NCBI GenBank assembly: GCA_029855935.1
Contig: JAGSHN010000016.1
Coordinates: 32,001 to 96,000 of the forward strand
Length of the DNA stretch: 64,000 nucleotides
Source: Candidatus Thorarchaeota archaeon
GTDB taxonomy: Archaea > Asgardarchaeota > Thorarchaeia > Thorarchaeales > Thorarchaeaceae
Reading direction: 5' to 3'
Position numbers and translations under genes: made by a program. The notes under the pieces were generated by a model. It was not told where the DNA came from and searched no databases. It was given only the letters and a program-made list of their open reading frames with translations. Positions 54,620 to 63,910 of this stretch are shown here, piece by piece. Positions within the stretch are counted from its first letter, which is position 1. Each line of letters opens with the position of its first letter.

Positions 54620-55852
54620 TCACGGACCGACCACTGCAAGGCTCTTGAGATAGCCTCTTCCTATCTTGAACACCATCGGCAAGAAGTCCGTGAACAATCG
54701 CATCACCGTGGCCACACTGATATGACCCTGCACAATCTCGTTGAGCGTCGCTGCATCGAGCTCCCGGAGTACAATCTCCGCAGCCTCAAGGGGGTCATTG
54801 AGCATCGAATATCTTGACACAGCCCACATCCCCCTTCCGGTATTCTGAATGTTCCACGCAAGCTTTGACCCTCGGTACTCCTTCTCGTACTTGTAGACGC
54901 TTCGTCTGGAGAAGTCGTCCTGTTCCACCATCCTCTGTGCGTGCTGGGCGAGCAGAGATCCCGCGTGCAAGCAGGTGGTGACGCCTCCGCCAACAATCGA
55001 CGAGACCTGCCCTGCTGAGTTACCACAGAGTGCAACACCCGCATCGGTGAATCGTGGTATCAGACCCGCACAGGGGACCACCCCGCCATTGGCGCCCACG
55101 ATCTTCGCATCACGGGTCTCCTCGTGGGTCCTCATATACTTCAGCAGAACCTCTCTCATCGGGGGTAGACTGTGCCACTCGGAGCCCGTTGTTGGCACGC
55201 GTCCGATCCCGAGGTTGACCTCGGTCTCGCTTCGCGGATACAACCAGAGATAGCCAAGTCCCACATCACGCCCAACATAGAAATAGGCAGTCTCGGGATC
55301 GATGTTCTTGCAGTTGGCGAGCTTGAATCTGATGCCATATGAGAGTAGCCACTTTGGGTGAGTGAAACCAGCGGTCTCGGAGACTCGGCTGAAGGATCCG
55401 TCCGCACCAACCGTCAGCGATGCCTTCACAGAATCTGCACCACGGTTGTAGGTCACACCCGTGACCTGTCCGTTGTCCTTGGTCACCGAGTCTACTCTGG
55501 CGCCAAACCTGAACTCCGCTCCATCAGCCACAGCCCTCTCGTACATCAGTTCCTGGCACCTGTCCTCATCGAGCAGGTACGAGTTGCCAAGCAGTCTTCG
55601 GTCCACAGCAATACTTGCTCCGGTGTCGAGACTCGCCCCCACAATGGCAGAGAACTTGTTGCCAACATACTCCGAGTCAGGTCTCACACGGAGAAGCCTC
55701 AATGCCTTGTCGGTGACGAGCTCTCCCATCAGAGAGTCGGTGACCTTTGCGCGCTTCTCAAGAACGACTGTCTTCAGTCCTCTCGCGGCGGCCTGTTCAG
55801 CAGTCTTGAGGCCTGCCGGGCCAGTCCCAACAACGGCGACATCATACTTCAT
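54620..55852 (-). CDS. Geranylgeranyl reductase family flavoprotein
   Basis: YDVAVVGTGPAG, VGADG, GYLWLYP...VNLG and G.SAGQV....GGG motifs. Confidence 0.85.
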   Translation of the reverse strand: MKYDVAVVGTGPAGLKTAEQAAARGLKTVVLEKRAKVTDSLMGELVTDKALRLLRVRPDSEYVGNKFSAIVGASLDTGASIAVDRRLLGNSYLLDEDRCQELMYERAVADGAEFRFGARVDSVTKDNGQVTGVTYNRGADSVKASLTVGADGSFSRVSETAGFTHPKWLLSYGIRFKLANCKNIDPETAYFYVGRDVGLGYLWLYPRSETEVNLGIGRVPTTGSEWHSLPPMREVLLKYMRTHEETRDAKIVGANGGVVPCAGLIPRFTDAGVALCGNSAGQVSSIVGGGVTTCLHAGSLLAQHAQRMVEQDDFSRRSVYKYEKEYRGSKLAWNIQNTGRGMWAVSRYSMLNDPLEAAEIVLRELDAATLNEIVQGHISVATVMRLFTDFLPMVFKIGRGYLKSLAVVGP

Positions 55853-55995
55853 CCAGCTGGCACCTTCCGCAGTGGTCGCTCCACGGCAAAGAATGACGCT
55901 ATTATCTCTTTTCCATAGAGGCTGTAGTTCCGAGCAGATTAAAAGGAAGATCTGGTGCTGCGATTCGCGAGCTGGAATATCTTGAGGCTAGAGGA

Positions 55996-56853
55996 ATGAA
56001 GGCCCGGACGATTGTCTACGCTGTGTATCTCATTCTATCCATATTCGTGAGCATTACGGTAGCGGCGTTTCCCGCGATCGTTCTGTTCCTGATCTTCTTC
56101 AATCTTATCGACTCTATTGTGGCCAGTGTGATACCTCCTCTCAATCTGATTCGTGATGCGGTTCTGGCGCTACTTGGTACTCTTCTGCCTCAGTTCTTCG
56201 CCGATCACTTCTGGTTCTTTGTGCTGCTAGTTCCGGCGTTGCTCACCTGCTATGCGATATTCTTGGGCATCCTCCTTGTGATGTTCAGACTCTCCCGGCG
56301 AGGTCTTCCCTATCTCGAGGACGGCTACTACCCGATGGAGACAGAGGAGTGGATGCTCTACGAGTTCTACGAGGTCTACTACGTGATCTTTCCGTACTTT
56401 GCGTGGTTCTTCAGCGTCTTCCTTGACACTCGTCCAAGGCATGCTCTCTTTGGTGCAAAGATAGGCAAGAACACGGTCGTGGGAAACGGTCGCCTGTTCA
56501 ATCCCGAGCGGACGATCATCGGTGACAACTGCTTCTTCGGATATGATGCCATACTCAGCGGACACGTCTATGAGGGCGGTCGCCTGTATCTGAAGACGGT
56601 CAGGCTGGGAGATAATGTGACTGTAGGGGCCAACTCGGTCATCCTGCCTGGGGCCGACATAGGCGACAATGTGATCATTGCTGCGAACAGCACGGTGCCC
56701 AAGAATCGCGTCATCCCGCCCAACAGCATCTGGGTACATGGCAAGGCAATCCCTCGCAAGAAGAAGGAGGAGCTGCCTGAAGAGGTGGCAACAGAGCTGG
56801 AGGCCACTCTGCCCGCTGTGGAACCGGAGGACGAAGAGGATGTCGGTGAGTGA
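55996..56853 (+). CDS. Membrane-bound hexapeptide-repeat (left-handed beta-helix) acyltransferase
   Basis: N-terminal TM helices, then FGAKIGKN...IGDNCFFGYDAILSGH...LGDNVTVGANSVILPG. Confidence 0.85.
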   Translation: MKARTIVYAVYLILSIFVSITVAAFPAIVLFLIFFNLIDSIVASVIPPLNLIRDAVLALLGTLLPQFFADHFWFFVLLVPALLTCYAIFLGILLVMFRLSRRGLPYLEDGYYPMETEEWMLYEFYEVYYVIFPYFAWFFSVFLDTRPRHALFGAKIGKNTVVGNGRLFNPERTIIGDNCFFGYDAILSGHVYEGGRLYLKTVRLGDNVTVGANSVILPGADIGDNVIIAANSTVPKNRVIPPNSIWVHGKAIPRKKKEELPEEVATELEATLPAVEPEDEEDVGE

Positions 56854-56912
56854 GTCTAGTTCATATACGGAGGAGCCCCTCGGACACCTGATAGATGGCG
56901 GTGGTGGACAGG

Positions 56913-57311
56913 ATGATCCTATTGATGTTCCACCTTGAGAGCTTCTGGTATCGGCCGAACGAGGCTGAGACTGGTGTGCGGGATGAGCACAGGTTTGGCG
57001 AGTCGGTACTCGTCTGGATTCAGGCAGAGGAGCGGGACCATAAGAACCGCATTGCTGTTCTCAGGAAGATGGTCAAGAACATCAAGTGGCTTGCCCAGAA
57101 GGTCGGCTGCAACCGAATCATCCTTCACTCCTTTGCTCATCTTGGCACGAGCAAGGCCGATCCGGAGTTTGCGGATGCTCTCATCGAGGAGGTGGCGAAC
57201 AGGCTGAGGGAGCGAGGTTTTGAGGTTCACATAGTCCCCTTCGGGACGTTTCACGAGTTTGCGATGCACGTGAAGGGCCCCTCCCTTGCAAAGGTGTTTA
57301 AGACATTCTGA
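56913..57311 (+). CDS. Free-standing archaeal-type threonyl-tRNA synthetase editing domain (DTD-like fold)
   Basis: M.LLMFH, HSFAHL, PFG.F.EF.MHVKG.SLA motifs; start at 56913 after GGTGG. Confidence 0.85.
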   Translation: MILLMFHLESFWYRPNEAETGVRDEHRFGESVLVWIQAEERDHKNRIAVLRKMVKNIKWLAQKVGCNRIILHSFAHLGTSKADPEFADALIEEVANRLRERGFEVHIVPFGTFHEFAMHVKGPSLAKVFKTF

Positions 57312-57341
57312 GCCGAGAGTATCGTCAGGAACAGGCTGACG

Positions 57342-58763
57342 GTGACTATGACGGACAAGGAGAAGACGTACACACCAAGGGGTTATCAGCGCTATCTTCT
57401 TGAGCGGATTGAGGCCCTGAGGGGAACGAACCTGCTGCTTGAGCTCGACTGCGGACTGGGCAAGCGCTTCATCACACACCAGCTCGTGGTCGAGAGATTC
57501 CCGGAGTCTAGGTTCATAATCGTCGTTCATTCCTCGTCCTCACTGGCCGAGACCGTAGAGTACCTTCAGCAGGCCTATGGGGGGCTCGAGTCGGACCTTG
57601 GGGAGCTCTCCTCCCGCGTACCGTCACGTCTTCGGCCGCGAGTGCTTGACGAGAAGCGCGTCATTGTGACCACCCCGCAGATACTCGCGAGGATGTTGCA
57701 GACTCACTACGAGTTGTTTGAGGACTTCCGAATCCTGCTCATCAACGAGGTCGACACTATTGTGCGCCGGAGCGGCGGACGTACCAATCTGGTCTATCCT
57801 TGGCCAACGATACTCTCTCTGTTGGGAGACCGATGGATCATCGGGATGAGCGGAACTCTGCGAGACGACCATGCTGTCTTCACTGACGAGCAGGTGGAGA
57901 TACGACGCGAGCTGTTGACGCTACAGCAACACATCCCGGAGTCTGTCGTCATCACAATGGAGGAGCTGTACGGCACGGATGTCGGAGAATACGTCGAGCC
58001 GACCCTGATACAGGTCGAGCGAGTCGCTGACAGTCGCATCCGGTCAATCTCACGAGTGCTCGACGAGCTAATTCGTGACACGAGAGAGCAGATCGGCATG
58101 GAACTCGAGGATGATGGTCACCAGGACCTCATCGCTGATGACCCCCGGCGCGTTCATCTGATGCTGGAGCGACTGCCAGTTTCAGACGAGTTGAAGAGCA
58201 GGTACATGCACCTGCTGATGCTGCGCAAGTACGTATTTGCAATGCCTCCGCGGCAATTCCTCCGGATGTTCCATGGCCACTATCTGCATCACTACTTCAA
58301 CCTCTCCGACCTCTCACGGATACTCCCCTCGATATCGACGAAGGCTCAGCGGGTACTCGATATCGCGCTCGCTCATAGCAAGACTGTGGTGCTGACTTCC
58401 TATCTTGAGATGGTGTCCCAGATCGCTGGCCTGCTCAAAGATGCTGGACTGACCGTGCTGACGGTGACAGGTCGGACGAAGAACAAGGGCGAGGTCCTGC
58501 AGAGGTTTCGCGAGAGTCCCGAGGTGAACGTCCTCGTGATGTCGCCTGTTGGAGAGCGCGACCTCGACATTCCCAACGCCGACGTCATGGTGGTCTGCGA
58601 CACGATCAATACTGTGAAGACGATGTATCAGAAGTTCAAGCGGACGCGCGGCGGCCGTGTCGTTATTCTGGTCTACGAGGGCACATCCGAGGAGCGGAAG
58701 GTCAGACGACTTGTGAGCACACTTGTCGAGAGGTATCCCTGGTCGACAGCGACCACAGAGTGA
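57342..58763 (+). CDS. Superfamily 2 helicase-like protein (Hef/FANCM-like) with degenerate motifs
   Basis: PRGYQ, DCGLGKR, VTTPQ, INEVD, MSGT, VGERDLDIP and QKFKRTRG. Confidence 0.8.
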   Translation: MTMTDKEKTYTPRGYQRYLLERIEALRGTNLLLELDCGLGKRFITHQLVVERFPESRFIIVVHSSSSLAETVEYLQQAYGGLESDLGELSSRVPSRLRPRVLDEKRVIVTTPQILARMLQTHYELFEDFRILLINEVDTIVRRSGGRTNLVYPWPTILSLLGDRWIIGMSGTLRDDHAVFTDEQVEIRRELLTLQQHIPESVVITMEELYGTDVGEYVEPTLIQVERVADSRIRSISRVLDELIRDTREQIGMELEDDGHQDLIADDPRRVHLMLERLPVSDELKSRYMHLLMLRKYVFAMPPRQFLRMFHGHYLHHYFNLSDLSRILPSISTKAQRVLDIALAHSKTVVLTSYLEMVSQIAGLLKDAGLTVLTVTGRTKNKGEVLQRFRESPEVNVLVMSPVGERDLDIPNADVMVVCDTINTVKTMYQKFKRTRGGRVVILVYEGTSEERKVRRLVSTLVERYPWSTATTE

Positions 58764-58827
58764 CTCTCCCGCGCCTAAGACATGAGGCTGCCTCCACCAG
58801 CTGGGCAACGCTCATAGGTCATTATTA

Positions 58828-58833
58828 TTATAA
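58828..58833 (+). promoter_or_regulatory. Probable TATA box for acpS-fkbH-ACP
   Basis: TTATAA in an AT-rich patch about 32 nt before TTG 58865. Confidence 0.55.
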
Positions 58834-58864
58834 GTGCCATTCAGGGACCTGTCCGTGAATCGCC

Positions 58865-59317
58865 TTGGAAGCAGAGCGCACAGACAATGATCCGATAGTT
58901 GGTACGGGCGTCGATATTGTCCAGATCTCCCGTCTGAGACGGATTGACCTAAAGGCGCCGTTCTATCGGAGAGTATTCACCACCCGAGAGATGGAGTACT
59001 GCAAGAGATTTGACGATCCGCTTCCCCATCTGGCTGGGGTATTCGCAGCCAAGGAGGCTGTCTGGAAGAGTATCTCCCACCTATCCCCTCCCGCTCTCTC
59101 TGGCATAGAGATTCTACACGACCCACCCGGGCGTCCTCAGGTGCATCTGTCCGGCCATGTTGACTGCAGAGTCCATCTCAGTATCTCCCACTCTGGCGAC
59201 TACGCAGTGGCAGTGGCCATTGCCGTCGATTCCGAGATGGGCATCGATGGCGACTATGCGAGCAGGCTCGCGTCGCTCGTCACGGACCTGATCCAGTCGA
59301 AGGAGGTCCCCCGATGA
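58865..59317 (+). CDS. acpS: Holo-ACP synthase (AcpS-type phosphopantetheinyl transferase)
   Basis: GTGVDIV, FT..E..YC, FAAKEAVWKS, G.P and SISHS..YAVA motifs. Confidence 0.95.
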   Translation: MEAERTDNDPIVGTGVDIVQISRLRRIDLKAPFYRRVFTTREMEYCKRFDDPLPHLAGVFAAKEAVWKSISHLSPPALSGIEILHDPPGRPQVHLSGHVDCRVHLSISHSGDYAVAVAIAVDSEMGIDGDYASRLASLVTDLIQSKEVPR

Positions 59318-61149
59318 ACGATTCCGCTGACAAGCTCACAACTCTTCTTGAGACGGTCAGACAGGACCCATCGTATCTCAATCTATGGAGTGCGTACCGC
59401 CGCATTCGCGCCATGGGTCTTCCGGAACCCACTGACGAGAAGACCGCCGTCAGGCTTGCAATCATAGGCTCATCTACCCTTGAGCCGCTGGCCGCCTGCA
59501 TAGACGTCAAGATCCGGCTGGAGGGGCTCACCCCCGTGACCTACGTGGGCGGCTTCAATACATTTCGTCAGGAGGCACTGGACAAGTCCTCGGCACTGTA
59601 TGCTCACAGGCCCAATGTTGTTGTCCTCAGTGTTGACGCGTGGTCGCTGCTGAGTCAGACATTCCTTGCCGAGTTTGTCCGAATGGACAAGGCGCAGAGG
59701 GGGCAACATGCCAAGGCGATTGCCAGTGAGGTCATCGATGTTGCTCGTGCCATCGAACAAGAATCATCTGCGCTGGTTCTTGTCAACAACTTCATTGTCC
59801 CCGTGTTCTCCCCTGTCGGCATAGTTGACAGCAAGCAGGAAATTGGTCTGCGCGAGTTCTTCAGGCGTGCCAACAGTCTTCTCGAGGAGGCGTTCAGGGA
59901 CAGTAGCAGGGTCTTCGTGGTTGACCTCGACGCAGTGGCCTCTCAATTTGGAAAGAGGGACACCATAAACTGGAACACGTTCTATCGCGGAGGAATTCAG
60001 TTCAGCGAGTCCTTTATGCCCGTGCTTGCGGACGAGTACCTGCGCTATGTCCGAGCATTGAAGGGCAGGTCGAAGAAGTGCATTGTACTGGATCTGGACA
60101 ATACACTCTGGGGTGGCATAATCGGTGAGGATGGTATCGAGGGCATCCGGCTCGGTCCCACCTCCCCCGGCGCGGAGTACCTCGACTTTCAGAGAGTGCT
60201 TCTCAGTCTGTACAATCGCGGGATAATCCTCGCAGTCAACAGCAAGAACAATCCTGATGATGCCCTCAAGGTGCTGAGAGAGCATCCCTACCAGCTACTG
60301 AGAGAGGAGCACTTCGCAGCACTGAGGATCAACTGGCAGAATAAGGTTCAGAATCTCATAGAGCTCGCTCAGGAGATCAACATTGGTCTCGACAGTATGG
60401 TGTTCATCGATGACAGCCCTCAGGAGCGAGCGCAGGTCCGACAGGCGCTGCCAGAGGTACTTGTGGTCGACCTCCCGGAGAATCCACGACTCTACAGGGC
60501 CACACTCGAACGGCTCAACGTCTTTGATGTGCTATCACTGACCCCCGAGGATATGCGCAGAGGGGAGATGTACGTCGGCAAGAGAAAACGCGCCGAGTTG
60601 CAGCAGAGTGCTGCGTCCCTTGAGGACTTTCTACGGACCCTCCAGCTCCGCGTGGAGATAAAGCTGGCCGACGACTTTGACATGCCACGTGTGGTCCAGC
60701 TGATTGGCAAGACCAACCAGTTCAATCTGACGACCCGGCGCTATACTGATGCCGAGGTGCGCGGGTTTCGTGAGAGCCCTGATGTCCGGGTGTACAGGAT
60801 GGCTGTGAGCGACAGGTTCGGGGACGAGGGGATTGTTGGTGTGGCGATAGTCAGGAGCGAGAAGGACGCTTGGGTGATCGACTCGTTTCTGATGAGTTGC
60901 AGGGTCATCGGCCGGAATGTCGAGACTGCCTTTCTTGCCAAGATAGCCTCTGACGCACGCGAGAACGGTGTCCGGCGGCTGATTGGTGAGTACATCCCGA
61001 CCAAGAAGAACGTCCCGGCGAGGGATCTCTACGAACGACACGGCTTTGAGCTCATCGGTACAGATGAGGACGGTGTCACACGATGGCAGCTCGATCTGTC
61101 GACCTCCACTATTGAGGTGCCAGAATACATAGAACTTGTCGAGGAGTGA
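59314..61149 (+). CDS. fkbH: FkbH-like glyceryl transferase/phosphatase (N-terminal extension, HAD-IIIC, GNAT-like domain)
   Basis: DLDNTLWGG, SKN, FIDDSP.ER, KTNQFNLTT, DRFGD.G and FLMSCRV with the Cys. ATGA overlap with acpS. Confidence 0.95.
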   Translation: MNDSADKLTTLLETVRQDPSYLNLWSAYRRIRAMGLPEPTDEKTAVRLAIIGSSTLEPLAACIDVKIRLEGLTPVTYVGGFNTFRQEALDKSSALYAHRPNVVVLSVDAWSLLSQTFLAEFVRMDKAQRGQHAKAIASEVIDVARAIEQESSALVLVNNFIVPVFSPVGIVDSKQEIGLREFFRRANSLLEEAFRDSSRVFVVDLDAVASQFGKRDTINWNTFYRGGIQFSESFMPVLADEYLRYVRALKGRSKKCIVLDLDNTLWGGIIGEDGIEGIRLGPTSPGAEYLDFQRVLLSLYNRGIILAVNSKNNPDDALKVLREHPYQLLREEHFAALRINWQNKVQNLIELAQEINIGLDSMVFIDDSPQERAQVRQALPEVLVVDLPENPRLYRATLERLNVFDVLSLTPEDMRRGEMYVGKRKRAELQQSAASLEDFLRTLQLRVEIKLADDFDMPRVVQLIGKTNQFNLTTRRYTDAEVRGFRESPDVRVYRMAVSDRFGDEGIVGVAIVRSEKDAWVIDSFLMSCRVIGRNVETAFLAKIASDARENGVRRLIGEYIPTKKNVPARDLYERHGFELIGTDEDGVTRWQLDLSTSTIEVPEYIELVEE

Positions 61150-61152
61150 ACG

Positions 61153-61395
61153 TTGACGGACGACATTGACGCGAAGATCACCGAGATAGTGTCAAAGGTC
61201 CTGCTGCTGGACGAGGACAAGGTGACCGACACCCTGCGGCGCAAGGAGTACGAACCGTGGGACTCGATGGCGCATCTCATTCTTGTCAGTGAGGTTGAGA
61301 ACGAGTTCGGCATCTCCTTCACCGACGATGAGGTCGTGGAGATATGGACCGTTGGCGACCTTCGGCGGATGGTCACTGAGAAGGTCCATCGCTAG
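61153..61395 (+). CDS. Acyl carrier protein, FkbH-associated type
   Basis: 80 aa, acidic, WDSMAHL phosphopantetheine site, VENEFGI and TVGDL; starts 3 nt after fkbH. Confidence 0.93.
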   Translation: MTDDIDAKITEIVSKVLLLDEDKVTDTLRRKEYEPWDSMAHLILVSEVENEFGISFTDDEVVEIWTVGDLRRMVTEKVHR

Positions 61396-61858
61396 ACCCG
61401 TCGCTGGCCCGGCGTGTGTCTGGGTGGTCAAGTCTCTGGATCACTCGTGCTGGGTTGCCCGCCACCATCGTCCACGGGGGCACATCACGGCTCACCACGG
61501 CACCCGCGGCCACGATGGCCCCACGGCCAATCCGCACTCCTGGAAGGATGATGGCCCCACTTGCTATCCACGCCCCATCCTCTATGACCACCTTCTTCGG
61601 AGGCTGTCGGTAGGCGCCGCTCATTCTATGGTAGGGACTGGTGCCGGAATGGGCCATTATCTGCACGCCAGGACCGATTGAAACCCAGTCTCCAATCTCG
61701 ACGAGGTCTGGATGCTCGCTGTCAATCTGAACAAGATAGCCCACGAACACACCCTTCCCTATCTTGACACCGCATCTCCTGTGCACGGCCGCTCGGAATT
61801 GCCAGAAGGGTGCGAGCCACGCCAGTATTCTCAGAATCCGCCCCACTATCTTGCCCAT
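61373..61858 (-). CDS. Hexapeptide-repeat O-acyltransferase (YvoF / maltose acetyltransferase-like)
   Basis: Amphipathic N-terminus, GVKIGKGV, ID..HP.LV.IGD, IMAH, ILPGV.IG and DVPP...VAGNPARVI. Confidence 0.9.
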   Translation of the reverse strand: MGKIVGRILRILAWLAPFWQFRAAVHRRCGVKIGKGVFVGYLVQIDSEHPDLVEIGDWVSIGPGVQIMAHSGTSPYHRMSGAYRQPPKKVVIEDGAWIASGAIILPGVRIGRGAIVAAGAVVSRDVPPWTMVAGNPARVIQRLDHPDTRRASDGSSDGPSQ

Positions 61859-61862
61859 CTCT

Positions 61863-62747
61863 CTATCCTCCCTGTGCCATCTGATATCGCCACAGCTGCC
61901 TTCGTAGATAGTCCGAGAAGACCCAGTTGTCGATATCGCCCGTCAAGAGGAGACAGAATGAGGCATCACTGGGCCATCTGCCGTGCGAACGCCACCGAAG
62001 GACGGCCTCGGAGGGGGTTGGTGCCCAGGCTCCACGTCCAATCGCATGTTCGACGGCCCCCTCCAGACAGCCGACGTACCTTTTCTGCCCCATCCTAATT
62101 GGGTGGAGGTCGAACATCAGGACACCGCCTTGTGCCGCTGCGGAATCAATCTCCAGAATCAGACGTTGTGTCACCTGTTCAGGGGTCATCTTCAGTGTGT
62201 CAATCATCCGGTCGTCGCTCCACACGCTGAGAGGGATGTAGGTGACCGACGAGGGTCCTCCCCCCACAGTCACGTGAAAGAAGTGACGGCGCCGACGATG
62301 TTCCGGTCGGTAGCCGAGACCCCCGTCCCAGAGTAGACCTGCTCTCTCAAGCATCTGCGGCATGTCGTCGGTGTAGTTGTCGTAGGGTGCCCTGAAGCCT
62401 CGAACCGTGACACCGAGTTGTCGCAGTGTTCGAAGGCTCATCTGCAGGTCCCTCTCGCGTTCCTGTGCCGAGACGCGCGGATAGCGAATGTGGATGTAGC
62501 CGTGACTGGCGACCTCATGGCCCTCGCGCTCGATCCATCTCGTGAGGTCCGGGCGCATTGCTGCCACTGCAGCGACGACGGGGAAGGCGAATCTTGCTCC
62601 GTGCTTGTCCAAGACATCGAAGGTGTTCGACAGAATCTCCTCGAACGATATCCTGTGTAGTCGGTACATTCTGAGGAACTGAATGGGGGCTCTCAGCCCC
62701 CATCTGTGGAGAAGTTGTCGAACATACTCCGTGCCGGTCAGCATCAC
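61863..62747 (-). CDS. Polysaccharide deacetylase (CE4/PuuE-like), apparently circularly permuted
   Basis: GHEVASHGYIH, GFRAPY and DLHP motifs; the TxDxD strand (WP...LLTGDID) lies at the C-terminus. Confidence 0.85.
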   Translation of the reverse strand: MMLTGTEYVRQLLHRWGLRAPIQFLRMYRLHRISFEEILSNTFDVLDKHGARFAFPVVAAVAAMRPDLTRWIEREGHEVASHGYIHIRYPRVSAQERERDLQMSLRTLRQLGVTVRGFRAPYDNYTDDMPQMLERAGLLWDGGLGYRPEHRRRRHFFHVTVGGGPSSVTYIPLSVWSDDRMIDTLKMTPEQVTQRLILEIDSAAAQGGVLMFDLHPIRMGQKRYVGCLEGAVEHAIGRGAWAPTPSEAVLRWRSHGRWPSDASFCLLLTGDIDNWVFSDYLRRQLWRYQMAQGG

Positions 62748-62827: not shown

Positions 62828-63739
62828 TCACGGGACGTAGACGAAGGCCGACGCCAGAAGCCGGAGAATCGGGTCCACGAGGCTCCTGTCGAGGTGGCCC
62901 CAGACATAGTTGCACATTGCGATGAACTCTTCCGTGCGGAGCTCAGCATCGGACTTGCCGCCAACAATCTGCTTGGCCATCTTGACAAGCGTCTTCACAA
63001 TGTTCTTTGCATCCCTGTGGTCGCCCAGTATCTTCGTTGTTTCCTGCTCAATGTGCTGGATTCGGCTCTTGATGCGGATGTCTGCAATCTCGTCGCTACC
63101 CAGTGACTTGACGAGGTCCATCAGGACATCGAGTATGCCGTTGTGCAGCCCGGCAATGACCGCCTCCACCTCGTATGCTGTGAAGCGGATTTCCTCTCCG
63201 TCTACGTTCAGCGACCACTTCAGATCGCTGCTTCTGACGAGGTCGAACTGGCGTCCGTCGATGGTTATGTGTTCCTCAAAGTATCTGCTCTCCACACTGC
63301 TCTGAATGGACATCTTGAGGATTGCCGCCTCGGTGACCTTGATCGGTGCTCTCTTGTCGCCGCTTCTCAGCTCCAAGCAGAGATCGTCCTTCGGAGTGAT
63401 CTTTCTGACATAGTCTGACGCAGGCGCGACCTCCACCGGCGGGAGATTCTTCAGAAGCGATGCGAGGTTCCGGACCTCCTCCTCGGTCAGGAGATAGGTC
63501 TGCCTATCGCCTGATATCTTGATGCTACCATCCTCGGTGCGTTCGAAGATGATCTTGTTGCCACCACCCACGTTGGTGGTCTTACGATATTCCTGTCGGT
63601 AGTTGCGCACAGTCTGAGCCAGCTTCTCCAGTGCCGCAGCCACCATATGGGCCTCTCCATACCCTATGGTGATCTCGCCAGCGCTGTCGGTGGCGCGACC
63701 CAGCCCAACAGCTCCATCTCTCCTTATCTTGACGTACAT
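62828..63739 (-). CDS. Hypothetical protein with four beta-beta-beta-alpha repeats and a helical C-terminus
   Basis: Start moved to MYVKIRR; long ORF with an internal repeat pattern. Confidence 0.7.
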   Translation of the reverse strand: MYVKIRRDGAVGLGRATDSAGEITIGYGEAHMVAAALEKLAQTVRNYRQEYRKTTNVGGGNKIIFERTEDGSIKISGDRQTYLLTEEEVRNLASLLKNLPPVEVAPASDYVRKITPKDDLCLELRSGDKRAPIKVTEAAILKMSIQSSVESRYFEEHITIDGRQFDLVRSSDLKWSLNVDGEEIRFTAYEVEAVIAGLHNGILDVLMDLVKSLGSDEIADIRIKSRIQHIEQETTKILGDHRDAKNIVKTLVKMAKQIVGGKSDAELRTEEFIAMCNYVWGHLDRSLVDPILRLLASAFVYVP

Positions 63740-63910
63740 CTTGAGTAACCACTGTGCCAGAGGCCACGGCTGTAAAAAACTGTTGTGACGACGGAGTGTC
63801 CAGTCCATTGCAAAAATGAGTTCTGGAGGAGGTCGGTCCCTCTGCCGCCACTGTGACAGGCGCTCAAGAGGCGGCTCCTCCCACAGAGACTGTTCGTACT
63901 ACTATTGCGA

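What the first reader, a model, noticed from the sequence alone, without database searches (positions are those of the whole stretch)
54620..62747. Candidate glyceryl-ACP dependent lipid or envelope modification system in an Asgard-like archaeon
Seen: a coupled acpS-fkbH-ACP cassette with intact motifs and its own TATA box. It is flanked by two hexapeptide acyltransferases (one membrane-bound), a geranylgeranyl-reductase-like flavoprotein and a deacetylase. The window has no ketosynthase, FkbI/FkbK-type dehydrogenase, O-methyltransferase or MBOAT. Established: FkbH proteins load glycerate from 1,3-bisphosphoglycerate onto holo-ACP; archaea generally lack ACP-based fatty acid synthesis; Bacillus YvoF is a hexapeptide enzyme that O-acetylates an isoprenyl-glycerol ether. 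Inference: glyceryl-S-ACP is passed directly by the hexapeptide enzymes onto an isoprenoid ether lipid, or onto a de-N-acetylated surface glycan (an acetyl-for-glyceryl swap). Caveat: the genes lie in several transcription units and two unrelated-looking genes interrupt the cluster.
Basis: partly seen in the sequence, partly recalled or inferred. Interest (0 to 1): 0.88.

Follow-up and report, generated by a model that had tools for sequence, protein, structure and literature searches.

The report
Archaeal carrier-protein sugar-acylation gene cassette
A Thorarchaeota (Asgard archaeon) genome carries a five-gene cassette holding its only acyl carrier protein; the cassette most likely swaps an acetyl group on an amino sugar for a three-carbon glyceryl group, and the neighbouring "lipid" genes do not belong to it.

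Summary
Comparative genomics redraws the unit.

**The functional unit** is five genes at 58865-62747: AcpS, FkbH, ACP, a small hexapeptide (LbH) acyltransferase and a CE4 deacetylase.
- They stay together in every Asgard locus examined, across four gene orders and several families.
- They are present or absent as one block in Thorarchaeal genomes.
- They include the genome's only carrier protein and the family's only phosphopantetheinyl transferase.

**Not part of the unit:** the GGR-like flavoprotein, the membrane LbH protein, the helicase, the ThrRS-editing protein and the 326-aa protein. These are a family-wide syntenic backbone, also found in genomes without the cassette.

**Best reading (about 0.55):** FkbH makes glyceryl-S-ACP. 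The CE4 enzyme de-acetylates an amino-sugar acceptor, and the small LbH enzyme re-acylates it from ACP.
- Unrelated bacteria place FkbH-ACP next to CE4 or PIG-L deacetylases, N-acyltransferases, NeuB and glycosyltransferases.
- The co-fold of ACP with the LbH trimer passed its controls.

The acceptor is unknown, the biochemistry is untested, and I found no publication on it in archaea. The scan has already reported this cassette on other DNA, including another Thorarchaeota genome.

The lipid-modification reading is not supported.

The parts
58822..58835 (+). TATA-like element upstream of acpS
   Evidence: ATTATTATTATAAG lies about 30 bp upstream of the acpS start. This rests on sequence only; the promoter was not tested.
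58865..59317 (+). AcpS-type 4'-phosphopantetheinyl transferase (150 aa)
   Evidence: PF01648 scores 58 bits and TIGR00556 scores 74.5 against a cut-off of 45.35. It overlaps fkbH by 4 bp. Within the family, PF01648 matches over the cut-off lie beside FkbH in cassette genomes, apart from two weak extra hits elsewhere.
59314..61149 (+). FkbH-type loader (611 aa): N-terminal FkbH_N domain, HAD-IIIC phosphatase domain, C-terminal GNAT-like domain with catalytic Cys
   Evidence: TIGR01686 scores 326 bits against a cut-off of 146.65. D260/D262 and S528-C529-R530 are invariant in 25 homologues at 34-46% identity. PDB 3SLR matches residues 44-409. Thorarchaeal orthologues are 62-78% identical.
61153..61395 (+). 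Dedicated acyl carrier protein (80 aa), Ser38 in the WDSM motif
   Evidence: PF00550 scores 25.2 against a cut-off of 20.8. It is the only PP-binding domain in the genome. The WDS(M) motif is kept in 17 of 18 orthologues.
61373..61858 (-). Small LbH (hexapeptide) acyltransferase (161 aa); proposed glyceryl-ACP-dependent transferase
   Evidence: Hexapep scores 54 bits. The nearest solved relatives are GAT/MAT sugar O-acetyltransferases, followed by QdtC/WlbB sugar N-acetyltransferases. It lies beside FkbH in all 20 Asgard loci and in L058, in four arrangements. Orthologues occur only in FkbH-positive genera. The co-fold with ACP scored 0.65 against a best control of 0.00. H70 is invariant.
61863..62747 (-). 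CE4 (NodB-fold) deacetylase (294 aa) whose Asp-x-Asp motif sits at the C-terminus
   Evidence: PF01522 scores 57.6. The AF2 model has pLDDT 89, and the top Foldseek hits are PuuE-like CE4 proteins 3rxz, 3s6o, 1z7a, 3cl6 and 3qbu at E 4e-10 to 6e-9; ArnD 8t0j is also hit. Invariant residues are H82, H86, R119-P121-Y122, D178-D179, D213-H215 and C-terminal T269-G-D271-I-D273-N. Orthologues occur only in genera that have FkbH. The subfamily returned only 174 database hits; every source name shown among the 120 listed is Asgard.

Best explanation
The five genes form one self-contained carrier-protein acylation cassette.

1. AcpS converts apo-ACP to holo-ACP.
2. FkbH takes 1,3-bisphosphoglycerate, removes the phosphate with its HAD domain, holds glycerate on Cys529 and passes it to the ACP thiol, giving glyceryl-S-ACP.
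3. The CE4 enzyme removes an acetyl group from an acceptor. The acceptor is most likely the N-acetyl group of a hexosamine on a nucleotide- or polyprenol-linked glycan precursor.
4. The small LbH trimer docks holo-ACP at a subunit interface and transfers the glyceryl group to the freed amine, or possibly to a hydroxyl.

The net result is an acetyl-to-glyceroyl swap. The logic matches LpxC/LpxD and NodB/NodA/NodF.

What is shown: gene content, motifs, co-conservation, block presence/absence, and the absence of other ACP users.

What is inferred: the substrate of FkbH, the donor of the LbH enzyme, the substrate of the CE4 enzyme, and the acceptor.
For: (1) Co-location despite rearrangement. All five genes are adjacent in 20 of 20 Asgard loci from three families, in L058 and in a Hodarchaeota locus. 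Four orders occur:
- acpS-fkbH-acp converging on LbH-CE4;
- CE4-acpS-fkbH-acp with LbH on the opposite strand downstream of acp;
- the same operon with LbH (and the VOC gene) divergent upstream of CE4 (family f13, Hodarchaeota);
- CE4-LbH-fkbH-acp with acpS on the opposite strand.

(2) Shared phyletic pattern within the family. FkbH, CE4, small-LbH and AcpS orthologues occur in the same genera (g1, g2, g4-7, most of g11, g13, g16). They are absent from g3, g8, g9, g10, g12, g14 and g15.

(3) Clean block absence in six cassette-less genomes.

(4) No other use for the ACP. There is one PP-binding domain, no true ketosynthase and no MBOAT in a 97%-complete genome.

(5) FkbH catalytic residues are invariant, and the NCBIfam score is twice the cut-off.

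(6) Independent convergence elsewhere. In unrelated bacteria and archaea, FkbH-ACP is followed by:
- a canonical CE4 (Omnitrophota);
- a PIG-L/LmbE de-N-acetylase (Nitrospinota);
- an AAC(3)-like N-acetyltransferase fold (a candidate-phyla-radiation bacterium, Staskawiczbacteria);
- a GNAT;
- NeuB;
- GT2 plus PMT_2 glycosyltransferases.

LbH genes are also frequent neighbours. Two non-homologous deacetylase families in the same position argue for a de-acetylate-then-re-acylate logic on amino sugars.

(7) Co-fold of ACP with the LbH trimer. The score was 0.65 and the best of 3 controls 0.00. That mark was reached by 58 of 80 solved complexes and 2 of 110 mismatched pairs. The runs share at least 84% of contacts and the partner pLDDT is at least 84. 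ACP residues 37-43, including Ser38, sit at a subunit interface near the C-terminal end of the beta-helix. From my own knowledge of GAT/MAT structures, this is where the nucleotide end of CoA lies.

(8) Literature. C. jejuni 11168 makes N-(di-O-methylglyceroyl) pseudaminic acid and has an fkbH-domain gene, cj1302, in its flagellin glycosylation locus. A strain in which cj1302 is a pseudogene lacks that glycan (PMC7099621). Removal of the acetamido group followed by methylglyceroyl substitution was proposed for that system (PMC3068675).
Against: - No biochemistry exists for any member of this cassette type.
- The small LbH's nearest solved relatives use acetyl-CoA and O-acetylate sugars. Neither ACP use nor N-acylation can be read from its sequence.
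- Solved LpxA-ACP and LpxD-ACP complexes exist, so the co-fold pass may partly reflect likeness. It was also run with my own alignments and three copies, unlike the calibration.
- No glycosyltransferase, flippase or sugar-nucleotide gene lies next to the cassette in Thorarchaeota. AglB adjacency is seen only in other lineages (family f11 and L058), which share upstream synteny and so are not independent.
- All five proteins look cytosolic, so a soluble small-molecule acceptor is equally compatible.
Confidence: 0.55

Rival explanations
1. Same five-gene cassette and glyceryl-ACP donor, but the product is not a surface glycan. The acceptor is a soluble cytosolic molecule, such as an amino-sugar-based solute, thiol-like cofactor or other metabolite. 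Alternatively the LbH enzyme makes an O-glyceroyl ester and the CE4 enzyme acts at another step.
For: - None of the five proteins has a predicted membrane segment under the simple hydropathy scan used, which does not test for signal peptides.
- Neighbours of the cassette are unrelated and variable in Thorarchaeota and in family f13/Hodarchaeota loci (MFS, hydrolase, caspase, TPP enzyme, PurH).
- The nearest solved LbH relatives are O-acetyltransferases.
- The mycothiol and bacillithiol pathways use the same de-acetylate-then-acylate logic on a soluble GlcNAc conjugate (own knowledge).
Against: - In bacteria and other archaea the homologous FkbH-ACP cassettes sit inside glycan loci (GT2, GT4, PMT_2, NeuB).
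- In family f11 and L058 the cassette abuts aglB/STT3.
- The small LbH has a conserved amphipathic N-terminal segment. From my own recollection this is typical of enzymes acting on lipid-linked sugars such as WcaF/WbbJ; I did not test it.
Confidence: 0.2
2. The LbH and CE4 genes are an ordinary acetyl-CoA-dependent acetylation/de-acetylation pair that merely travels with acpS-fkbH-acp. Glyceryl-ACP is consumed by an unidentified enzyme encoded elsewhere.
For: - The LbH profile matches acetyl-CoA-using GAT/MAT enzymes best.
- In Thorarchaeota the two pairs lie in separate, convergent transcription units.
Against: - In L058 the LbH gene sits inside the operon between CE4 and fkbH. In family f11 the CE4 gene sits directly upstream of acpS on the same strand.
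- All five genes share one presence/absence pattern.
- No other candidate ACP client (ketosynthase, MBOAT) was found in the genome.
- The co-fold places ACP Ser38 at the LbH subunit interface, with score 0.65 against a best control of 0.00.
Confidence: 0.1
3. Glyceryl-ACP is passed by the hexapeptide enzymes, including the membrane-bound one, onto an isoprenoid ether lipid, with the GGR-like flavoprotein as part of the same system.
For: - The GGR-like gene and the membrane LbH gene lie within 4 kb of acpS in this and most Thorarchaeal genomes.
- Both LbH proteins give weak hits to the YvoF-type model NF058585 (55.7 and 72.7 bits).
Against: - Both NF058585 scores are far below the cut-off of 300.
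- The GGR-like protein (80 of 85 genomes) and the membrane LbH protein (75 of 85) occur in all or nearly all genera, including those with no FkbH, ACP or AcpS. They cannot depend on glyceryl-ACP.
- The two genera found to lack the membrane LbH protein (g2, g6) both have the cassette.
- Neither gene accompanies the cassette in other Asgard families.
- The cassette is absent as a block from an otherwise identical backbone.
Confidence: 0.05
4. The module supplies a polyketide-type building block, such as methoxymalonyl-ACP, a tetronate or a lactate starter.
For: All biochemically characterised FkbH/ACP pairs work in such pathways (own knowledge; papers listed).
Against: - There is a single carrier domain in the genome.
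- The ketosynthase model gives only weak hits to part of itself, in roughly 390-430-aa frames that I read as thiolases.
- No FkbG/I/K-type genes lie beside the module in any Asgard locus.
Confidence: 0.02

Closest known systems
FkbH/OzmB-type glyceryl-ACP loaders with their dedicated ACPs (methoxymalonyl-ACP, tetronate and trans-AT PKS starter pathways; NCBIfam TIGR01686)
   Same: Same domain architecture: FkbH_N, HAD-IIIC and a C-terminal Cys domain. The DxDxT and SCR residues are invariant. A small dedicated ACP is encoded immediately downstream.
   Different: There is no ketosynthase, no FkbI/K/G tailoring genes and no PKS or NRPS anywhere in the genome. The cassette stands alone in an archaeon with its own PPTase, and it pairs with an LbH transferase and a deacetylase instead of a synthase.
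Lipid A LpxC/LpxD and Nod-factor NodB/NodA/NodF steps (de-N-acetylation of a GlcNAc unit followed by N-acylation from an acyl-ACP)
   Same: The proposed logic is the same. The enzyme classes match in part: LpxD is an LbH enzyme that uses acyl-ACP, NodB is a CE4 deacetylase and NodF is a dedicated ACP.
   Different: This is not a member of either pathway. The acyl group here is a C3 hydroxy acid made by FkbH, not a fatty acyl chain. The small LbH lacks the LpxA/LpxD C-terminal ACP-binding domain. The CE4 is a distinct subfamily seen only in Asgard-labelled sequences, with its Asp motif at the C-terminus.
Bacterial glycan loci that produce N-glyceroyl or N-(di-O-methylglyceroyl) nonulosonic acids (C. 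jejuni NCTC 11168 flagellin locus with fkbH-domain gene cj1302; Tannerella forsythia Pse5Am7Gra)
   Same: An FkbH-domain gene sits in a sugar-modification setting. A glycerate-derived N-acyl group replaces an acetyl group. An acetamido-removal step has been proposed (PMC3068675, PMC7099621).
   Different: The enzymology is not established there either; the Gra gene is called 'elusive' in PMC6120980. The window's genome has no NeuB, so the acceptor is not a nonulosonic acid. The proposed deacetylase differs: CE4 here, against an aminopeptidase-like Cj1295.
Dlt D-alanylation system (DltA, DltC carrier, DltB MBOAT, DltD)
   Same: A dedicated carrier protein delivers a small acyl group to a cell-envelope polymer.
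   Different: There is no MBOAT in the genome and no adenylating ligase. Loading is by FkbH, and transfer is by a soluble LbH enzyme.

Membership tests
FkbH family (NCBIfam TIGR01686 / HAD-IIIC TIGR01681) | Score above the curated cut-off of the FkbH-domain model | tested here: met
   TIGR01686 scores 326.2 bits against a cut-off of 146.65. TIGR01681 scores 76.2 against 35.75.
FkbH family (NCBIfam TIGR01686 / HAD-IIIC TIGR01681) | HAD DxDxT nucleophile motif and C-terminal catalytic Cys | tested here: met
   D260-L-D262-N-T and S528-C529-R530 are invariant in a 25-sequence alignment at 34-46% identity.
FkbH family (NCBIfam TIGR01686 / HAD-IIIC TIGR01681) | Loads a glyceryl group from 1,3-bisphosphoglycerate onto its cognate holo-ACP | not testable with these tools
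   This needs an in vitro assay looking for +88 Da on holo-ACP.
Acyl carrier protein (Pfam PF00550) | Model score above cut-off and a phosphopantetheine-attachment Ser in a DSx motif at the start of helix II | tested here: met
   The score is 25.2 against 20.8. W36-D37-S38-M39 is conserved in 17 of 18 orthologues.
AcpS-type phosphopantetheinyl transferase | PPTase domain model above cut-off; AcpS equivalog model above cut-off | tested here: inconclusive
   The domain model TIGR00556 scores 74.5 against 45.35, so that test is met. The equivalog model TIGR00516 scores 51.3 against 59.8, so that test is not met. The size (150 aa) and motifs fit the AcpS type.
Carbohydrate esterase family 4 (NodB-fold deacetylases, PF01522) | Model above cut-off, NodB fold, His-His and Arg-x-Pro-Tyr motifs | tested here: met
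   PF01522 scores 57.6 against 23.1. The AF2 model has pLDDT 89, and Foldseek hits CE4 structures at E 4e-10. H82, H86 and R119-A-P121-Y122 are invariant.
Carbohydrate esterase family 4 (NodB-fold deacetylases, PF01522) | Asp-Asp (TFDD-type) motif 1 on the first strand at the N-terminus | tested here: not met
   No conserved acidic pair occurs at the N-terminus in 18 orthologues. An invariant T-G-D-I-D-N follows the last predicted strand at residues 264-274. Sequence tests of a circular permutation were inconclusive. The 3D geometry was not checked.
YvoF-type heptaprenylglyceryl phosphate O-acetyltransferase (NF058585) | Score above the curated cut-off | tested here: not met
   The small LbH scores 72.7 and the membrane LbH 55.7, against a cut-off of 300.
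GAT/MAT-class LbH sugar acetyltransferases | Hexapeptide-repeat beta-helix with a catalytic His; acetyl-CoA as donor | tested here: inconclusive
   Hexapep scores 54 bits. The best PDB matches are SACOL2570, LacA and Maa at E 1e-18 to 1e-23. H70 is invariant. The donor cannot be read from sequence; context and the co-fold point to ACP.
Methoxymalonyl-ACP / tetronate / PKS pathways | Ketosynthase or FkbG/I/K partners and further carrier domains | tested here: not met
   PF00109 gives only weak hits to part of the model, which I read as thiolases. There is a single PF00550 domain in the genome. No such genes occur in 20 Asgard neighbourhoods.
Dlt-like MBOAT-dependent envelope acylation | MBOAT membrane acyltransferase | tested here: not met
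   PF03062 is absent from the 97%-complete genome.
Digeranylgeranylglycerophospholipid reductase (flanking gene 54620-55852) | Score above the subfamily or equivalog cut-offs, and functional linkage to the cassette | tested here: not met
   TIGR02032 scores 127.7 against 158.8, and NF041160 scores 121 against 780. The gene is present in 80 of 85 family genomes whether or not they carry the cassette.

The most novel reading that the evidence does not exclude
The only acyl carrier protein of these Asgard archaea does not serve lipid synthesis. It serves to N-glyceroylate a hexosamine of the dolichol-linked N-glycan precursor handled by their eukaryote-like AglB/STT3. This would be a previously unknown ACP-dependent tailoring step in archaeal N-glycosylation, using a circularly permuted CE4 deacetylase.
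Probability: 0.2. Interest if true: 0.75.

Novelty: new variant of a known kind. Interest (0 to 1): 0.58.

Why it matters
- ACP and AcpS genes in Asgard genomes can be misread as traces of bacterial-type fatty-acid synthesis, which bears on the 'lipid divide'. Here they prove to be a dedicated, dispensable tailoring cassette, present in about half of Thorarchaeal genomes and unrelated to lipid genes.
- The cassette, together with its bacterial cousins in glycan loci, offers a concrete and testable genetic route to N-glyceroyl amino sugars. Published work on Tannerella calls the genetic basis of that modification 'elusive' (PMC6120980).
- It gives glycoproteomic studies of Asgard archaea a predicted mass signature to look for.
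- The CE4 protein, with its Asp motif at the C-terminus, is a compact case for studying permutation of the NodB fold.

Tried and rejected
- **Lipid system including GGR and the membrane LbH:** rejected on phyletic and synteny data.
- **326-aa gene (62828-63808) as a sixth member:** rejected. It occurs in 82 of 85 family genomes, including cassette-less ones.
- **VOC/glyoxalase gene as a core member:** it sits beside the cassette in families f11 and f13, in Hodarchaeota and in Thorarchaeal genus g11. It is absent from the cassette in the window's own genus, where only a weak family-wide paralogue exists on contig C19. I treat it as an optional accessory.
- **Nonulosonic acid as acceptor:** no NeuB in the genome.
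- **aglB adjacency in this genome:** the only STT3 lies on another contig.
- **Sequence tests of the CE4 circular permutation:** Smith-Waterman and hhalign comparisons of native against permuted sequence, run against canonical CE4 proteins, gave equal scores and were uninformative.
- **Expression:** no RNA holder was listed. The only run holding the DNA is a hydrothermal-vent metagenome that is probably its source.
- **Literature:** no paper in the library links FkbH to archaea or glyceryl-ACP to glycans.
- **L060 LbH against the window's small LbH:** 39% identity over 92 residues, which is generic LbH similarity and not evidence of orthology.

Full report
**Observation.** The window is contig C28:32001-96000 of a 2.97-Mb, 97%-complete assembly. 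Its FkbH protein has 62-78% identical orthologues labelled Candidatus Thorarchaeota. The only public run holding the DNA is a hydrothermal-vent metagenome.
- a GGR-family flavoprotein (54620-55852, minus strand);
- a 285-aa LbH protein with a hydrophobic N-terminal 100 residues (55996-56853);
- a stand-alone ThrRS editing domain;
- an SF2 helicase;
- AcpS (58865-59317);
- FkbH (59314-61149; TIGR01686 scores 326 bits against a cut-off of 146.65);
- ACP (61153-61395);
- a 161-aa LbH acyltransferase (61373-61858, minus strand);
- a CE4 deacetylase (61863-62747, minus strand).

acpS, fkbH and acp are translationally coupled, and so are CE4 and the small LbH gene. The two units converge with a 23-bp overlap. 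A TATA-like element lies about 30 bp upstream of acpS. The catalytic residues of FkbH (D260, D262, C529) and Ser38 of ACP are conserved.

**Which genes belong together.** I fetched about 20 kb around FkbH in 20 Asgard genomes from three families.
- In all 20 loci, CE4, AcpS, FkbH, ACP and the small LbH are adjacent.
- In families f11 and f13 (FkbH 46-50% identical) the order is different. CE4-acpS-fkbH-acp lie on one strand, with the LbH gene on the other strand. In f11 it lies downstream of acp; in f13 it lies divergently upstream of CE4.
- A further archaeal contig (L058) has CE4-LbH-fkbH-acp, with acpS opposite. Its CE4 and LbH are orthologues at 42% and 61% identity.
- A Hodarchaeota locus also carries all five.

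The GGR-like gene, the membrane LbH gene, the ThrRS-editing gene and the helicase accompany FkbH only inside the window's own family.

**Phyletic test inside the family (86 genomes, 16 genera).**
- Orthologues of FkbH, CE4, the small LbH and the AcpS family occur in the same genera. All are absent from g3, g8, g9, g10, g12, g14 and g15.
- The GGR-like protein (80 of 85), the membrane LbH protein (75 of 85) and the 326-aa protein next to CE4 (82 of 85) are family-wide.
- The only two genera found to lack the membrane LbH protein (g2, g6; one genome each) have the cassette.
- In six cassette-less genomes the backbone reads GGR, membrane LbH (missing in one of the six), (ThrRS-ED), helicase, 326-aa gene. 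The helicase abuts the 326-aa gene there, so the five genes are missing as one block of about 3.9 kb.

The flanks are backbone synteny, and the cassette is an insertion/deletion unit within it.

**No other use for the carrier protein.** The genome has one PP-binding domain. The ketosynthase model gives only weak hits to part of itself, in frames of roughly 390-430 aa; it also rings in all control archaea, which is why I read the hits as thiolases. There is no MBOAT and no NeuB. PPTase genes in the family occur only beside FkbH, apart from two marginal hits.

**The deacetylase.**
- The CE4 subfamily is narrow. It returned 174 hits among 5.8 billion proteins; of the 120 listed, every one that carries a source name is labelled as an Asgard lineage.
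- An 18-sequence alignment shows invariant H82, H86, R119-P121-Y122, D178-D179 and D213-H215. It also shows an invariant C-terminal T-G-D-I-D-N, while the N-terminus has no acidic pair.
- The AF2 model (pLDDT 89) ends with a confident strand at 264-269. It matches PuuE-like CE4 structures at E 4e-10, and also ArnD, which de-formylates a lipid-linked amino sugar.
My sequence-level permutation tests were uninformative, and I could not inspect coordinates.

**The transferase.**
- The small LbH is closest to GAT/MAT sugar O-acetyltransferases, then to sugar N-acetyltransferases such as QdtC and WlbB. H70 is invariant.
- It lacks the C-terminal domain that LpxA and LpxD use to bind ACP (own knowledge).
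- A co-fold of three LbH copies with ACP scored 0.65, against 0.00 for the best of three controls. That mark was reached by 58 of 80 solved complexes and 2 of 110 mismatched pairs. The runs share at least 84% of contacts, and the partner pLDDT is at least 84.
- ACP residues 37-43, including Ser38, contact LbH residues 117 and 131-142 of one subunit and 105, 121-124 and 136-138 of another.
- This supports binding but does not show it. LbH-ACP complexes have been solved, and the job differed from the calibration.

**Relatives elsewhere.** The FkbH family is very large, with 15,527 clusters at 50% identity. Among 80 named loci, most have an ACP immediately downstream and roughly a quarter have an LbH gene nearby. 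The genes following FkbH-ACP include:
- a canonical CE4 (Omnitrophota);
- a PIG-L/LmbE de-N-acetylase (Nitrospinota);
- an AAC(3)-fold N-acetyltransferase (Staskawiczbacteria, a candidate-phyla-radiation bacterium);
- a GNAT (Phycisphaerales);
- MaoC dehydratases (Nitrososphaerales);
- NeuB (Melioribacter);
- GT2, GT4 and PMT_2 glycosyltransferases.

Two unrelated deacetylase folds and three unrelated N-acyltransferase-type folds recur beside the same loader inside sugar loci. This is the strongest comparative argument for a de-acetylate-then-re-acylate route on amino sugars.

In a maximum-likelihood tree the Asgard FkbH proteins form one clade (SH-aLRT 99). Other archaeal FkbH proteins are scattered among bacteria. 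No root or direction of transfer can be inferred.

A VOC/glyoxalase-fold gene is a sixth member in f11, f13, Hodarchaeota and Thorarchaeal genus g11. It is not a member in the window's genus.

**Literature.**
- I found no paper on FkbH in archaea and none linking glyceryl-ACP to glycans.
- N-glyceroyl pseudaminic acid is known in Tannerella forsythia, and its gene is called elusive (PMC5378307, PMC6120980).
- C. jejuni 11168 makes N-(di-O-methylglyceroyl) pseudaminic acid. Its flagellin glycosylation locus contains the fkbH-domain gene cj1302. A strain with cj1302 as a pseudogene lacks that glycan (PMC7099621).
- Removal of the acetamido group before methylglyceroyl substitution has been hypothesised for that system (PMC3068675).

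**Earlier findings of this scan.** The scan has reported the same kind of cassette before on other DNA. These include another Thorarchaeota genome (e1-5236724), a Bathyarchaeia genome next to aglB (e1-2412164) and several bacteria (for example e1-1426221). Those are AI notes, not independent evidence. My tests reach a similar reading and add three things: the block presence/absence result, the exclusion of the flanking genes, and the co-fold.

**Verdict.** The unit is a five-gene ACP-dependent acyl-swap cassette, not a lipid system. The donor chemistry is well founded by homology. The deacetylase-transferase coupling is well founded by comparative genomics. The acceptor remains unknown: a glycan precursor is favoured and a soluble metabolite is not excluded.

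Noticed in passing
window 54620-56853: The GGR-family flavoprotein and the membrane-anchored LbH protein form a divergent gene pair. It is conserved in nearly all Thorarchaeaceae genomes (80 of 85 and 75 of 85), independently of the FkbH cassette. The LbH part weakly resembles the C-terminal domain of Pls/PosA synthetases (TIGR02353, 54.7 bits against a cut-off of 423) and YvoF. The pair may be a lipid-related unit of its own.
   Followed up: partly
L034:8722-8958 (genome G322): The ACP orthologue reads W-D-A-M where all 17 others have W-D-S-M. The phosphopantetheine-attachment Ser is therefore replaced by Ala in that assembly. This may be a dead carrier or a sequencing or assembly variant.
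   Followed up: no
L042:6890-7294, L043:12458-12940, L046:11095-11502, L044:5044-5460: A VOC/glyoxalase-fold gene of 134-160 aa accompanies the cassette in families f11 and f13, Hodarchaeota and Thorarchaeal genus g11. It is missing from the cassette in the window's genus. It may epimerise or otherwise modify the ACP-bound acyl group.
   Followed up: partly
window 62828-63808: A 326-aa protein with no Pfam or NCBIfam match is present in 82 of 85 family genomes. It always flanks the helicase or the cassette. Its function is unknown.
   Followed up: partly
window 45164-47506: A 780-aa protein combines FG-GAP/BBSome-like beta-propeller repeats with a C-terminal Ras/Rab-like GTPase domain (Ras, 157.8 bits). 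It is an Asgard-type eukaryotic-signature protein.
   Followed up: no
L052:2447-5707 (window 64447-67707, beyond the window end): A 1086-aa protein has a TrmB-type winged helix at its N-terminus followed by a long apolipoprotein-like helical region (PF01442, 109 bits).
   Followed up: no
G342:C47:80872-82368, G353:C32:12350-13861, G355:C10:60339-61847, G348:C336:1187-2680: Some Thorarchaeal genomes carry a second, distant FkbH paralogue (30-33% identity) elsewhere. One has a weak PPTase hit nearby (G353:C32:16152-16373). Their contexts were not examined.
   Followed up: no
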